From Mobula birostris (Eukaryota): a DNA stretch of 64,000 nucleotides. Made by a program: the position numbers and the translations under genes. The DNA is taken from positions 39,910,777-39,974,776 of the forward strand of contig NC_092390.1 in NCBI RefSeq assembly GCF_030028105.1, written 5' to 3'. The notes under the pieces were generated by a model. The model ran no database searches, was not told where the DNA came from, and saw only the letters and a program-made list of their open reading frames with translations. Positions 52,878 through 63,253 of the stretch are shown one piece after another. How positions within the stretch are numbered: position 1 is the first letter of the stretch; every line of letters starts with the position of its first letter.

Positions 52878-55298
52878 ATTTAGAATATAGAATAGTACAG
52901 CACATTACAGGCCCCGCGGCCCACAATGTTGTGTCGACCCTCAAACCCTGCCTCCCATATAAGCCCCCACCTTAAATTCCTCCATATACCTGTCTAGTAG
53001 TTTCTTAAACTTCACAAGTATATCTGCCTCCACCACTGACTCAGGCAGTGCATTCCACGCACCAACCACTGTCTGAGTAAAAAACCTTCCTCTAATATCC
53101 CCCTTGAACTTCCCACCCCTTACCTTAAAGCCATGTCCTCTTGTATTGAGCAGTGGTGCCCTGGGGAAGAGGCGCTGGCTATCCACTCTATCTATTCCTC
53201 TTATTATCTTGTACACCTCTATCATGTCGCCTCTCATCCTCCTTCTCTCCAAAGAGTAAAGCCCTAGCTCCCTTTATCTCTGATCATAATGCATACTTTC
53301 TAAACCAGGCAGCATCCTGGTAAATCTCCTCTGTACCCTTTCCAATGCTTCCACATCCTTCCTATAGTGAGGTGACCAGAACTGGACACAGTACTCCAAG
53401 CGTGGCCTAACCAGAGTTTTATAGAGCTGCATCATGACATTGCAACTTTTAAACGCTATCCCTCGACTTATGAAAGCTAACACCCCATAAGCTTTCTTAA
53501 CTACCCTATCTACCTGTGAGGCAACTTTCAGGGATCTGTGGACATGTACCCCCAGATCCCTCTGCTCCTCCACACTACCAAGTATCCTGCCGTTTACTTT
53601 GTACTCTGCCTTGGAGTTTGTCCTTCCAAAGTGTACCACCTCACGCTTATCCGGGTTGAACTCCATCTGCCACTTCTTAGCCCACTTCTGCATCCTATCA
53701 ATGTCTCTCTGCAATCTTTGACAATCCTCTACACTATCTACAACACCACCAACCTTTGTGTCATCTGCAAACTTGCCAACCCATCCTTCTAACCTCACAT
53801 CCAGGTCGTTAATAAAAATCACGAAAAGTAGAGGTCCCAGAACAGATCCTTGTGGGACACCACTTATCACAGCCCTCCAATCTGAATGTACTCCCTCCAC
53901 CATGACCTTCTGCCTTCTGTAGGCAAGCCAATTCTGAATCCACCTGGCCAAACCTCCCTGGATCCCATTCCTTCTGACTTTCTGAATAAGCCTACCGTGT
54001 GGAACCTTGTCAAATGCCTTACTAAAATCCATGTAGATCACATCCACTGCTCTACCCTCATCTATATGCCTGGTCACCTCCTCAAAGAACTCTATCAGGC
54101 TTGTTAGACACGATCTGCCCTTCACAAAGCCTTGCTGACTGTCCCTGATCAGACAATGATTCTCTAAATGCCCATAGATCCTATCTCTAAGAATCTTTTC
54201 CAACAGCTTTCCCACCACAGACGTAAGGCTCTCTGGTCTGTAATTACCCGGACTATCCCTACTACCTTTTTTGAACAAGGGGACAACATTCACTTCCCTC
54301 CAATCCTCCGGTACCATTCCCGTGGACAACAAGTACATAAAGATCCTAGCTAGAGGCTCAGCAATCTCTTCCCTCACCTCGTGGAGCAGCCTGGGGAATA
54401 TTGCGTCAGGCCCCGGGGACTTATCCGTCCTAATGTATTTTAACAAATCCAACATCTCCCTTAATATCAACATGCTCCAGAACATCAACCTCACTCATAT
54501 TGCCCTCACCGTCATCAAGTTCCTTCTCATTGGTGAATACCGAAGAGAAGTATTCATTGAGGACCTCACTCACTTCCACAGCCTCCAGGCATATCTTCCC
54601 ACCTTTATCTCTAATTGGTCCTACCTTCACTCCTGTCATCCTTTTGTTCTTCACATAATTGAAGAACGCCTTGGGGTTTTCCTTTACCCTACTCACCAAG
54701 GCCTTCTCATGCCCCCTTCTTGCTCTTCTCAGCCCCTTCTTAAGCTTTCTTGCTTCCCTATATTCCTCAATAGACCCAGCTGATCCTTGCTTCCTAAACC
54801 TCATGTATGCTGCCTTCTTCGACCTGACTAGATTTTCCACCTCACTTGCCACCCATGGTTCCTTCACCCTACCATTCTTTATCTTCCTCACCAGAACAAA
54901 TTTATCCCTAACATCCTGCAAGAGATCTCTAAACATTAACCACATGTTCATAGTACATTTCCCTGCAAAAGCATCATCCCAATTCACACCTGCAAGTTCT
55001 AGCCTTATAGCCTAATAATTTGCCCTTCCCCAATTAAAAATTGTCCTGTCCTCTCTGATTCAATCCTTTTCCATGATAATGCTAAAGGCCAGGGAGCAGT
55101 GGTCACTGTCCCCCAGATGCTCACCCACTGAGAGATCTGTGACCTGACCCGGTGCATTACCTAGTACTAGATCTAGTATGGCATTCCCCCTGGTCGGCCT
55201 GTCAACATATTGTGACAGGAATCTGTCCTGGACACACTTAACAAGCTCTGCCCCATCTAAACCCTTGGAACTAATCAGGTGCCAATCAATATTAGGGA
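52878..55298 (-). mobile_element. CR1 LINE, 5'-truncated, ORF2 (end of APE + RT) frameshifted
   Basis: ORFs 54430-54987, 53274-54494 (YMDFSKAFDKV, PQGSVLGPLLF, FADD) and 52941-53252 (ERRRMRGDMIEVYK...FFTQTVVGAWNALP); ctattctat-type tail near 52880-52900. Confidence 0.95.
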
Positions 55299-55593
55299 AA
55301 GATCAGCTGGAGTGCAGAAGACAACAAACTGTACAAATATAAATAAATAAATAGCAATAAATAACGAGAGCATGAAATGACAAGATAGAGAGACCTTAAA
55401 GTGAGATCATTGGTTGTGGGAACATCTCAATAAATGAATGTAGTTATCCTCTTTTGCTAAAGCTTGAGGGGTAGTAACTGTTCTTGAATCTGGTGGTGCG
55501 AGTCCTGAGGCTCTTGTGGTGAAGTGATTTTATATGCCATGCATTTTTTTTAAATCTGAGGAACAATCGCTTCAGTGTGTGTATACAGTATTT

Positions 55594-56747
55594 CAGTAAG
55601 TTATAGTGCAGACTGCTTTGTATATGCAAGTTGATTCATGCTTTTCGTGAGCAAATTCCACATAAAAGTCATTTTAGCCATCTGAGGCCACACTGATAAT
55701 GATTTGTGGGTGATATTGTCCTCAGTGTGAATCCAGCCTGTCCTCTGTGTGCAGTTCCAGCATCCCTCAAGCACATCTTGGTTAGTTGCAGATAACACAA
55801 GGCAGATAGACCTGGCGACACAACCAAGTGCTGAGGTGTTTGGCAGCTGAACTTGAGTGTAAGAGAGTAACCACCAACTCCAGGCCTCTCAATGTCCAGA
55901 CAACGGTTCCACAACTACCATCCTTCATCCGGGAAGGAGAGAAACCCAGGGCTAGTCCCTTGCCCACTGAGTGCAGCCAGGGACTGGGAAATGCGTGTTG
56001 ATTTAGGCCAGAAATTTACCTTCCCATCTGAAATTGCAACGACCAACCTGCGGCCTGACCTGGTCCTTTGGTCCAACTCCTTTATCATTGAGCTGACAGT
56101 CCCCTGGGAGGATGCTGTGGATGGGGTTTACGAACGGAGAAGGCTGCAATATGCCAACCTCGCAGTTGAAGCAGACGTACGTAAAAGTGCGCCCAGTTGA
56201 GGTTGTGTGCAGGGACTTTGTAGCCAGTTCCACCGTAAGGCTGCTGAGGGAAGTAGGGGTCAGAGGGCAGGCCCATAGGGAGGCAATCAGAGCACTTGCT
56301 AATGCCGCCGAAATGAGCAGTCACTGGCTGTGGCTGAAAAGAAGGGGTGCTGTCTGGGCTGCCAAGTGACCATCTAGAGACTAACCATGTGACACACACC
56401 CAGGGCTGATCAGCCAGTGGTGGGCCTGCCTCGGCTGAGGGTGTCTTGTGATAAAAGGCCCAAACACCCAGCGATGTCGAGGTACACAACTGAAGATGTG
56501 TCGTAATGGTAGTAACATCATCTAGTGGTCATCTTTGAGAACTACTTCCACTCAAGTCAAGTGCAGTGCAGAAACTTTAGGGATTGTAACATCTAATCCT
56601 ATTAATCTAACAGTAAGTAATAGTGCAGACTGCTTTGTATATGCCAGTTGATTCATGCTTTTCATGAGCAAATTCCACATAAAAGTCATTTTACCCATCT
56701 GAGGCCACATTGACAATGATTTCTGGGTGATATTGTCCTCAGTGTGA
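55594..56747 (+). repeat. 137-bp direct repeat pair (55594-55730 and 56611-56747) flanking the HERO fragment
   Basis: cagtaagt...gtcctcagtgtga occurs twice, same length, 7 substitutions counted by eye. Confidence 0.9.
55731..56610 (+). mobile_element. HERO-type (R2-related, restriction-like endonuclease) LINE 3' fragment
   Basis: ACPLCAVPASLKHILVSC (CCHC), QGR*TWRHNQVLRCLA, DWEMRVDLGQKFTFPSEIATTNLRPDLVLWS..IIELTVPWED (PD-(D/E)xK), VEVVCRDF, SSHWLWLKRR...W, then a HERO-like 3' UTR (gagggtgt...aaacaccc...ctgaagatgtgtc). 3' boundary is inferred from the flanking repeat. Confidence 0.85.
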
Positions 56748-57212
56748 TCTGGTCTGGGTACTTTTTGTACAGTATTCATCTTAACACAGCTGCTGTTAAT
56801 TGGGCATTGGTCAAACACCAGTGGATATCACAGCTCATCTTTCTTACATCAGTGGCATAAATTAAAGCTTTTGAGCTGTGACTTTTGACTTCTGCCGTTA
56901 AAGAGCAGAACTAAAGAAGCATGGTCTAGTGATCAATAGTGAGATTGTAATTCAAAATATCCTGCATGAGGAATTTGCCAGCCTCAGTTTTATATGATCA
57001 GGATTACGGAACTGGCAGCAGCCGTGCCCCCTTCACTGTCTACAGCCTTTTTATTTTAACCATTTGTGTGTGGCACGCTTGATCAGCCGACACCTCTCAA
57101 CAGTCTGAGACAAATGGAACTCCAACCCATCAGGAACACGCAGATGCACAGGGGATCACTGTATCCTATCGCCCTTTTATCCCTTATTCCCGTGGCAATC
57201 ATTACTGTAGCA

Positions 57213-59167: not shown

Positions 59168-62100
59168 AAATGCGTGGCTGAGGGATTGGAGCAGGGGGCA
59201 GGGATTCAAGTTTTTGGATCATTGGGATCTCTTTTGGCGCAGGCGTGACCTGTACAAAAGGACGGGTTACACTTGAATCCTAGGGGGACCAATATCCTGG
59301 CAGGGAGATTAGCGAGGGCTACTGAGGTGACTTTAAACTAGAATGGTTGAGAGGTGGGAATCAAATTAAAGAGGCTAGGCGTGAGGAGGTTAGTTCACAA
59401 CAGGGGGATGGGAACCAGTGCAGAGAGACAGAGGGGTGTAAAGTGAGGGTAGAAGCAAAAAGTACTAAGGAGAAAAGTAAAAGTGGCAGGCCGACAAATC
59501 CAGGGCAAGCATTAAAAAGGGCCACTTTTCAACATAATTGTATAAGGGCTAAGAGAGTTGTAAAAGAGCACCTGAAGGCTTTGTGTGTCAATGCAAGGAG
59601 CATTCGTAATAAGGTGGATGAATTGAAAGTGCAGATTGTTATTAATGATTATGATATAGTTGGGATCACAGAGACATGGCTCCAGGGTGACCAAGGATGG
59701 GAGCTCAACGTTCAGGGATATTCAATATTCAGGAGGGATAGACATGAAGGAAGGGGAGGTGGGGTGGCGTTGCTGGTTAAAGAAGAGATTAATGCAATAG
59801 AAAGGAAGGACATAAGCCAGGAAGATGTGGAATCGATATGGGTAGAGCTGCGTAACACTAAGGGGCAGAAAACGCTGGTGGGAGTTGTGTACAGGCCACC
59901 TAACAGTAGTAGTGAGGTCAGAGATGGTATTAAACAGGAAATTAGAAATGTGTGCAATAAAGGAACAGCAGTTATAATGGGTGACTTCAATCTACATGTA
60001 GATTGGGTGAACCAAATTGGTAAAGGTGCTGAGGAAGAGGATTTCTTGGAATGTATGCGGGATGGTTTTTTGAACCAACATGTCGAGGAACCAACTAGAG
60101 AGCAGGCTATTCTGGACTGGGTTTTGAGCAATGGGGAAGGGTTAATTAGCAATCTTGTCGTGAGAGGCCCCTTGGGTAAGAGTGACCATAATATGGTGGA
60201 ATTCTTCATTAAGATGGAGAGTGACATAGTTAATTCAGAAACAAAGGTTCTGAACTTAAAGAGGGGTAACGTTGAAGGTATGAGACGTGAATTAGCTAAG
60301 ATAGACTGGCAAATGACACTTAAAGGATTGACGGTGGATATGCAATGGCAAGCATTTAAAGGTTGCATGGATGAACTACAACAATTATTCATCCCAGTTT
60401 GGCAAAAGAATAAATCAAGGAAGGTAGTGCACCCGTGGCTGACAAGAGAAATTAGGGATAGTATCAATTCCAAAGAAGAAGCATACAAATTAGCCAGAGA
60501 AAGTGGCTCACCTGAGGACTGGGAGAAATTCAGAGTTCAGCAGAGGAGGACAAAGGGCTTAATTAGGAAGGGGAAAAAAGATTATTAGAGAAAACTGGCA
60601 GGGAACATAAAAACTGACTGTAAAAGCTTTTATAGATATGTAAAAAGGAAAAGACTGGTAAAGACAAATGTAGGTCCCCTACAGACAGAAACAGGTGAAT
60701 TGATTATGGGGAGCAAGGACATGGCAGACCAATTGAATAATTACTTTGGCTCTGTCTTCACTAAGGAGGACATAAGTAATCTTCCAGAAATAAAAGGGGA
60801 CAGAGGGTCCAGTGAGATGGAGGAACTGAGCGAAATACATGTTAGTAGGGAAGTGGTGTTAGGTAAATTGAAGGGATTGAAGGCAGATAAATCCCCACGG
60901 CCAGATGGTCTGCATCCTAGAGTGCTTAAGGAAGTAGCCCAAGAAATAGTGGATGCATTAGTGATAATTTTTCAAAACTCATTAGATTCTGGACTAGTTC
61001 CTGAGGATTGGAGGGTGGCTAATGTAACCCCACTTTTTAAAAAAGGAGGGAGAGAGAAACCAGGGAATTATAGACCAGTTAGCCTAACGTCGGTGGTGGG
61101 GAAACTGCTGGAGTCAGTTATCAAAGATGTGATAACAGCACATTTGGAAAGCGGTGAAATCATCGGACAAAGTCAGCATGGATTTGTGAAAGGAAAATCA
61201 TGTCTGACGAATCTCATAGAATTTTTTGAGGATGTAACTAGTAGAGTGGATAGGGGAGAACCAGTGGATGTGGTATATTTGGATTTTCAAAAGGCTTTTG
61301 ACAAGGTCCCACACAGGAGCTTAGTGTGCAAACTTAAAGCACACGGTATTGGGGGTAAGGTATTGATGTAGATGGAGAATTGGTTAGCAGACAGGAAGCA
61401 AAGAGTGGGAATGAACGGGACCTTTTCAGAATGGCAGGCGGTGACTAGTGGGGTACCGCAAGGCTCAGTGCTGGGACCCCAGTTGTTTACAATATATATT
61501 AATGACTTGGATGAGGGAATTAAATGCAGCATCTCCAAGTTTGCGGATGACACGAAGCTGGGTGGCAGTGTTAGCTGTGAGGAGGATGCTAAGAGGATGC
61601 AGAGTGACTTGGATAGGTTGGGTGGGTGGGCAAATTCATGGCAGATGCAATTTAATGTGGATAAATGTGAAGTTATCCACTTTGGTGGCAAAAATAGGAA
61701 AGCAGATTATTATCTGAATAGTGGCCGATTAGGAAAAGGGGAGGTGCAACGAGACCTGGGTGTCATTATACACCAGTCACTGAAAGTGGGCATGCAGGTA
61801 CAGCAGGCGGTGAAAAAGGCGAATGGTATGCTGGCATTTATAGCGAGAGGATTCGAGTACAGGAGCAGGGAGGTACTACTGCAGTTGTACAAGGCCTTGG
61901 TGAGACAACACCTGGAGTATTGTGTGCAGTTTTAGTCCCCTAATCTGAGGAAAGACATCCTTGCCATAGAGGGAGTACAAAGAAGGTTCACCAGATTGAT
62001 TCCTGGGATGGCAGAACTTTCATATGAAGAAAGACTGGATGAACTAGGCTTGTACTCGTTGGAATTTAGAAGATTGAGGGGGGATCTGATTGAAACGTAT

Positions 62101-62482
62101 AAAATCCTAAAGGGATTGGACAGGCTAGATGCAGGAAGATCGTTCCCGATGTTGGGGAAGTCCAGAACAAGGGGTCACAGTTTGAGGATAAAGGGAAAGC
62201 CTTTTAGGACCGAGATTAGGAAAAACTTCTTCACACAGAGAGTGGTGAATCTGTGGAATTCTCTGCCACAGGAAACAGTTGAGGCCAGTTCATTGGCTAT
62301 ATTTAAGAGGGAGTTAGATATGGCCCTTGTGGCTACGGGGATCAGGGGGTATGGAGGGAAGGCTGGGGCGGGGTTCTGAGTTGGATGATCAGCCATGATC
62401 ATAATAAATGGCGGTGCAGGCTCGAAGGGCCGAATAGCCTACTCCTGCACCTATTTTTCTATGTTTCTATGTTCTATGTTTC
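59168..62482 (+). mobile_element. CR1 LINE, 5'-truncated in ORF1; complete ORF2 (APE + RT) with three in-frame TAG stops
   Basis: ORF1 esterase C-terminus (NAWLRDW...FLDHWDLFW...DGLHLNPRGTNIL). ORF2 59347-62379 in a single frame: LCVNARSIRNK, GITETW, MGDFN, SDH (APE); PQGSVLGP, FADD (RT). (tttctatg)n tail. Confidence 0.96.
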
Positions 62483-63253
62483 TAACTGAAGCCACGTAGC
62501 TCCTTTCCCATCGGTTGCCAATGAGCCAATGAACCAAACTTGCAGTATTTTGTATTACCAATGTCCAACAGGGTCATGCAATCACAAAAACAAACATGCT
62601 TTGCATCTTTTTTTTGGACCCAGAATGGCTGCTGCAATCTAGCATGCTGCCATCTTACTGGAAAATACACTTACGTTCAGTCAGATGAACCACTAGACTG
62701 TGCATATATAACTTACCTGCATGGTTCTAATGGCAGCTCACTGCAGAAGTCTCAGCTGCAGCATCATTGCTATGGCAGCCATGTTTTCCTTGGGGTGGTG
62801 AACCACATGTCTGGCCACCTTTTCCCCACCCATGAGTGGCCCATGCTTGCTATGCTGGCAAGATCACAGGATGTATTTGTCAGTGAATTATGTTAAAGGG
62901 CTGCTATAAGTAAAGAGATATTCAGCAATGCTGATATAAATATGCTGATGATTGAAAAACTGAGGCTAATGGATGCAGAGCTTAGTACATTTATGGAATA
63001 ATGAAAACCACTCAAGTCATGTTTCCCTGCCGATCTGTTGCAAGGGTTGGCCCTTATTTTCCTGTAAGCTATAACAAGACTGTAAGTCATAACTTAAAGG
63101 TTCTGAATTGTGAGATCAATATCTTGCAGAAAGAATGTGACAGCTTCACATTTTAATGGTCAAGATAATGGAACTGCTATTAGATGCTCTATGAATGTAA
63201 CCATTTGTGAGTAACCAATAGCTTGAGACAATTGGAGCACACCAACCAATGGG

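What the first reader, a model, noticed from the sequence alone, without database searches (positions are those of the whole stretch)
55594..56747. HERO-type RLE retrotransposon bracketed by a 137-bp direct repeat: possible very long target-site duplication
Seen: a 5'-truncated HERO fragment (CCHC + PD-(D/E)xK endonuclease + 3' UTR) starts exactly after 55594-55730, and an equal-length copy of that block (7 differences, ~5%) lies at 56611-56747. The block is not part of the other repeats I recognised. Known: non-LTR TSDs are usually under ~20 bp; a reported exception is the RLE-bearing R9 element of bdelloid rotifers (126-bp TSD). Inference: this HERO family may nick the second strand ~137 nt away, which would be unusual for a vertebrate element. 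Caveat: about 90 nt between the recognisable UTR and the second repeat must then be element tail.
Basis: partly seen in the sequence, partly recalled or inferred. Interest (0 to 1): 0.7.

Follow-up and report, generated by a model that had tools for sequence, protein, structure and literature searches.

The report
Occasional long insertion scar of retrotransposon
A dead, front-truncated jumping gene sits exactly between two copies of 137 bases of host DNA that a related species carries only once; about one in eleven copies of its family has such a long duplicate, of very different lengths, so it is likely an occasional repair outcome already described for other jumping genes, not a fixed long-distance cut.

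Summary
The 137-bp direct repeat is real (7 differences), unique in the genome (2 matches) and flush with both ends of the element; the family's 3' end falls at 56610. One contig of a related organism joins the flanks with one copy of the block and no element, so this is a target-site duplication. It is not a family constant: 7 of 79 independent insertions have long junction-exact duplications (62, 88, 137, ~180, ~255, ~297, 1125 bp); the rest show none, and 10 with inferable empty sites are +2 to -24 bp. This two-peaked pattern matches R2 protein in cells: small deletions normally, ~1-kb duplications when its second nick fails (PMC13486585). A fixed ~137-nt nick is refuted. The scan found similar cases in other genomes. 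Side result, more surprising: copies lying within 10 Mb of each other share patchy substitutions (14 of 18 pairs above the 99th percentile), likely megabase-range gene conversion; no clean control family was obtained.

The parts
55594..55730 (+). left copy of the duplicated host block (137 bp)
   Evidence: present once in the organism D contig
55731..56610 (+). 5'-truncated RLE non-LTR retrotransposon copy (880 bp of a ~3.8-kb unit), HERO-like
   Evidence: 87-93% to most other copies over its whole length; 5' junction flush with the block; shared 3' end; unit length from tandem copies
55739..55789 (+). CCHC zinc-knuckle remnant (CPLC..H..C)
   Evidence: read from sequence; same motif in longer copies
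56051..56110 (+). restriction-like endonuclease motif remnant (RPD...ELTVPWE), frameshifted and dead
   Evidence: motif name recalled; no Pfam family matches it
56370..56610 (+). 3' UTR, no poly(A); ends at the family's shared 3' boundary
56611..56747 (+). right copy of the duplicated host block (137 bp, 95% identical)
   Evidence: organism B contig runs from the element tail through it

Best explanation
The 137-bp repeat is a target-site duplication made when this retrotransposon copy inserted, and it likely arose because the element's own nick on the second strand, normally right beside the first, failed and a more distant break was used instead. Shown: the repeat is flush with both element ends, a relative has one copy and no element, 7 of 79 insertions carry such duplications of 62-1125 bp, and the others are blunt or slightly deleted where this can be inferred. 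Inferred: reverse transcription was primed at a first nick with a few bases of microhomology (C, CT or CTG at the start of most 3' flanks); in about 9 of 10 cases a nick next to it gives +2 to -24 bp junctions; in about 1 of 11 the cDNA is joined at an unrelated break tens to ~1000 bp downstream and host repair fills both strands, duplicating the DNA between.
For: Junction-exact repeats in 7 of 79 independent insertions; empty site with one block in organism D; contigs from the host repeat around L038 skip 2849-2910 bp, about element plus one block (paralogous copies, indirect); 10 paralogue-inferred empty sites of +2 to -24 bp; among 72 other copies short repeats are close to the shuffled control, with a mild excess at 4 nt (31 vs 16.4). 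Arm differences of 2.0-8.1% fit the family's age (8.1% mean between copies). PMC13486585 (passages): wild-type avian R2 protein gives junctions within ~10 bp upstream, nick-crippled variants give duplications of the order of 1,000 bp. PMC5223499 (passages): L1 TSDs over 100 bp at up to 10% in HeLa.
Against: No nick was observed; the mechanism is borrowed from R2 and L1 in cultured cells. The empty site rests on one contig at depth 5 in one run, about 9% diverged, with 49 letters not shown; recombination between the two repeats would also leave one copy. A second lay, on L038, gave no orthologous empty site. The excess over a control family is not significant (7 of 79 vs 0 of 28, Fisher P=0.19), so a family-specific weakness is not shown. 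The window copy was the seed: without it the count is 6 of 78.
Confidence: 0.7

Rival explanations
1. The family's endonuclease nicks the second strand at a fixed distance of about 137 nt, like R9.
For: The window copy itself; R9 precedent of 126 bp (cited in PMC9977147 and PMC13486585; the R9 paper itself was not held).
Against: 72 of 79 insertions lack a long duplication; the 7 lengths span 62-1125 bp with no two alike.
Confidence: 0.03
2. No second nick is needed: the cDNA flap persists until a replication fork or a template switch resolves it, and the 5' end is joined to a sister strand downstream of the nick, giving a duplication of variable length.
For: Four of the seven have 3-8 nt overlap between duplication end and element start, and two (L104, L107) carry extra rearranged element pieces; all seven inserts are 876 bp or longer, 0 of 30 under 800 bp (P=0.04, threshold chosen after seeing the data).
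Against: The same features fit repair at a distant nick; the window copy is a clean flush junction. The product cannot tell the two apart.
Confidence: 0.22
3. The duplication is independent of the insertion: an older tandem duplication that the element hit at its junction, or a later local duplication.
For: The single copy in organism D could be a secondary loss by recombination.
Against: Seven loci with both repeat ends within a few bases of both element ends; arm divergence no greater than the family's age.
Confidence: 0.05

Closest known systems
Avian R2 protein with crippled second-strand nicking (PMC13486585; passages read)
   Same: RLE-type element; small deletions as the normal junction, large duplications as the second class.
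   Different: Engineered, site-specific, human cell culture; here natural, not site-specific, fixed in a vertebrate genome. Protein similarity only at RT level (E 4e-12 to 9nl3).
Long TSD class (>20 bp) of L1 and ZfL2-2 (PMC5223499, PMC2666801, PMC4245944; passages read)
   Same: Minority of insertions with variable long duplications (up to 10% over 100 bp for L1 in HeLa; 1 of 25, 1228 bp, for ZfL2-2 in DT40).
   Different: APE-type elements whose main class is a short TSD; this family's main class is blunt or slightly deleted.
Dualen-4b_cRei (PMC9977147; passages read)
   Same: RLE-bearing LINE with variable long flanking duplications in natural insertions.
   Different: More than half of insertions, median 900 bp, two endonucleases, green alga; here about 9%.
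R9 of bdelloid rotifers (126-bp TSD; known here only from citing passages)
   Same: RLE element, similar length to the window copy's repeat.
   Different: R9 is rDNA-specific with one length; this family is dispersed with scattered lengths.
HERO clade / Zebulon of Tetraodon (title only seen in a reference list; details recalled)
   Same: One ORF with RT, CCHC and RLE motifs; dispersed; head-to-tail tandem copies in which a 3' piece precedes the 5' start (5 insertions, plus a 7-nt piece in a sixth).
   Different: Clade assignment was not tested by a tree; what is published on HERO TSDs could not be read (not held).

Membership tests
Target-site duplication | Repeat abuts both element ends | tested here: met
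Target-site duplication | Empty site has one copy | tested here: met
   one contig, one run, joint 55740 to 56804; 59 letters after the block versus 56 expected
Target-site duplication | Block is host DNA, not element or dispersed repeat | tested here: met
   2 matches, both here
Target-site duplication | Arm divergence fits the element's age | tested here: met
   5.1% (7 of 137) versus 8.1% mean between copies on different chromosomes
R9-like fixed long-TSD elements | Most copies carry a long TSD of one length | tested here: not met
   7 of 79, lengths 62-1125 bp
R9-like fixed long-TSD elements | Sequence-specific target | tested here: not met
   flanks share only C (65 of 80) and T (51 of 80) at the first two 3' bases
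RLE non-LTR retrotransposons | RT domain followed by CCHC and PD-(D/E)xK-type motifs in one ORF | tested here: met
   RVT_1 E 6.6e-20; best PDB hits R2 proteins; motifs seen in natural fragments, motif names recalled
HERO clade | RT phylogeny groups with HERO references | not testable with these tools
   no HERO reference sequences held; Atlas search unavailable
HERO clade | RLE element, dispersed, in deuterostomes | tested here: met
   copies on many chromosomes; clade description in PMC9004415 (passage)

The most novel reading that the evidence does not exclude
HERO-type proteins are intrinsically unreliable at the second nick, so about one germline insertion in ten duplicates 60-1100 bp of host DNA: a natural, heritable counterpart of the engineered R2 failure mode. 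And the scattered dead copies of this low-copy family keep overwriting each other by gene conversion across 1-20 Mb, a thousand times the ~10-kb range reported for Alu and fly elements.
Probability: 0.35. Interest if true: 0.62.

Novelty: new member of a known kind. Interest (0 to 1): 0.36.

Why it matters
It gives a counted, natural example in a vertebrate genome of the two-peaked junction pattern just shown for engineered R2, with an empty-site check. That bears on how RLE elements finish insertion and on R2-based gene insertion tools. It also means TSD finders capped at ~20-50 bp miss a class of insertions. The phenomenon itself is known. The side result may matter more: if copies megabases apart convert each other, divergence-based dating and source-gene trees of low-copy repeats are biased, and such families record long-range chromosome contacts in the germline.

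Tried and rejected
Fixed 137-nt nick: rejected by the length spread. Block as element tail or dispersed repeat: rejected. Second empty-site test on L038 with runs X10, X12, X9, X5: flanks are multi-copy, no orthologous contig could be told. Pfam on four window fragments: nothing. Host gene: not identified. Control for long TSDs: 29 loci of a ~310-bp family, 1 dropped (L118, no usable alignment), 0 of 28 long; too few, and a different kind of element. Controls for the neighbour effect failed: two high-copy families showed no nearby copy among their best 40 hits (one query each, one family only 2% diverged), which is weak evidence against a genome-wide effect; a third was confounded by a young expansion on C17, where near pairs were not consistently more alike. 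Local hopping as the cause of the neighbour effect: disfavoured, since insertions are not significantly clustered. Papers on Zebulon, R9 and the HERO classification were not held. No supplements were read.

Full report
Observation. The repeat is as described: 55594-55730 and 56611-56747, 137 nt, 7 substitutions, no gaps. A search of the own genome (G000, 4.0 Gb) with the block returns only these two places. Between them lie 880 bp that match a dispersed family. Homology starts at 55731, flush with the left copy. The fragment has a CCHC knuckle, an RPD...ELTVPWE motif and a stop at 56369; longer copies add an RT domain (RVT_1, E 6.6e-20) whose best solved relatives are R2 proteins. The label HERO is plausible from recalled motifs and the tandem structure but was not tested by a tree. 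The DNTT remark could not be confirmed.

Is it a TSD? Contigs of four public runs were laid on 55450-57200. In organism D one 709-bp contig (depth 5, about 9% different) aligns to 55470-55740, has 49 unshown letters, and continues at 56804-57142. That leaves 59 letters after the block against 56 expected for an empty site with one block and no element. Organism B has a contig running from the element tail through the right copy, so it shares the insertion. Caveats: one contig, one run, and recombination between the repeats would give the same product. A second lay on L038 gave only paralogous evidence: contigs skipping 2849-2910 bp, about element plus one block.

Family survey. I collected the 3' ends from a DNA search (40 of 99 candidates scored) and a 30-base pattern with up to 2 mismatches (81 matches) and fetched flanks. 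That gave 83 oriented copies; three are upstream halves of tandems and two (L087, L088) share flanks, leaving 79 independent insertions. Seven have a direct repeat that starts at the 3' end and stops at the 5' truncation: L086 62, L112 88, window 137, L038 ~180, L081 ~255, L104 ~297 and L107 1125 bp. The interval computed for 7 of 79 is 3.6-17.4%; without the seed copy it is 6 of 78. Flanks searched were 1.0-1.5 kb downstream and 0.6-5.6 kb upstream, so much longer duplications could be missed. Among 72 other copies the best short repeat was near the shuffled control, one reaching 11 nt; L059, completed later, had no long repeat. For 10 copies that sit in other repeats, paralogues give the empty state: +2, +1, 0/-1, -2, -2, -4, -3/-11, -17, -24, -24 (alignments 65-96% identical, so approximate). 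Arm differences are 2.0-8.1% against 8.1% mean divergence between copies, as expected if the duplications date from insertion. A ~310-bp control family had 0 of 28 long duplications and mostly 8-17 bp repeats; the difference is not significant (P=0.19).

Mechanism. Shown: two classes of junction, blunt or slightly deleted in most, long and variable duplications in about 9%. Inferred: priming at a first nick with microhomology (65 of 80 3' flanks begin with C, the first base of the next tandem unit), then usually a second nick beside it; when that fails, a distant break is used and repair copies the interval. PMC13486585 (passages) shows this switch for avian R2 protein: junctions within ~10 bp upstream for wild type, duplications of about 1,000 bp when second-strand nicking is crippled. 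PMC5223499 (passages) reports L1 TSDs over 100 bp at no more than 10% in HeLa and far more in NER-deficient cells; PMC2666801 one 1228-bp TSD in 25 ZfL2-2 insertions; PMC4245944 names the class; PMC9977147 reports Dualen duplications of median 900 bp. Resolution at a replication fork without any second nick gives the same product and is the main rival. A fixed 137-nt nick is excluded.

Novelty. Long, variable TSDs in a minority of insertions are known. Two searches listed no paper on them in HERO elements, but the main HERO, Zebulon and R9 papers were not held, so absence from print is not established. The scan noted similar single cases in at least six windows of other genomes, two with family rates of about 7% and one in eight (AI notes, not support).

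Side result. A tree of 61 copies is star-like, yet all 12 starred branches join copies on the same chromosome. Shared non-majority changes fall with distance from 20.5/kb under 2 Mb to background beyond 20 Mb; 14 of 18 pairs under 10 Mb exceed the 99th percentile of 2378 between-chromosome pairs, and 0 of 2000 permutations reach the mean (71 copies; pairs within trios are not independent). Insertions are not significantly clustered (6 versus 3.2 pairs under 2 Mb, P=0.12; 13 versus 8.0 under 5 Mb, P=0.053), sharing is patchy at P<0.05 in 4 of 14 pairs, and two trios show conflicting patterns. This favours gene conversion after insertion over local hopping. PMC8230782 and PMC11226609 (passages) give about 10 kb as the usual range, though the latter also lists more distant events. 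Four searches listed nothing on megabase-range LINE conversion by title or abstract start. Against: three control queries gave no matching signal or were confounded, and assembly error was not excluded with raw reads.

Verdict. Observation confirmed; TSD reading supported; fixed distant nick refuted. New member of a known kind, interest 0.36, part of it owed to the side result.

Noticed in passing
window 55731-56610 versus L033 (G000 C25, 1.45 Mb away), and family-wide: Copies near each other on a chromosome share non-majority substitutions (CpG excluded): 20.5/kb at 0.01-2 Mb (6 pairs), 13.8 at 2-5 (7), 11.5 at 5-10 (5), 4.9 at 10-20 (7), 1.9 beyond, 1.55 between chromosomes (2378 pairs); 0 of 2000 permutations reach it. 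All 12 starred tree branches join same-chromosome copies. Sharing is patchy and, in two trios, not tree-like; the window copy shares 16 changes with L033, all in its 3' ~500 bp. Likely megabase-range gene conversion; papers put it at about 10 kb (PMC8230782, PMC11226609, passages). No clean control family.
   Followed up: partly
L044/L068, L093/L102, L037/L106, L042, L097, L050: All six copies that keep the element's 5' start have a piece of the 3' end (7-906 bp) directly in front, so source transcripts likely came from head-to-tail arrays; most 3' flanks begin with 1-6 bases matching the next unit's start (65 of 80).
   Followed up: partly
L107 (C22:58.23 Mb) and L104 (C20:21.78 Mb): The two longest duplications go with rearranged inserts: L107 has three tail pieces, one inverted, and an internal piece; L104 has a 128-bp internal piece at its 5' end.
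   Followed up: partly
L067 and L100 (C7, 2.4 Mb apart): Two separate insertions share the same 133-bp secondary insert with a 14-bp TSD.
   Followed up: no
L087 and L088 (C6, 9.4 Mb apart): Same 241-bp element with the same flanks on both sides: one insertion later duplicated; counted once.
   Followed up: yes
G000 C17:1-32 Mb (L163-L173): A repeat related to the 2-kb insert in L109 has 14 of its 40 listed hits on C17; the eight fetched are 0-3% apart: a young, chromosome-restricted expansion.
   Followed up: no
window ~59326-62489 (+) and ~52881-55517 (-): Other LINE-like repeats: a young family (98% to its best hits, 5943 candidates) and an older reverse-strand one ending just left of the duplicated block.
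   Followed up: no
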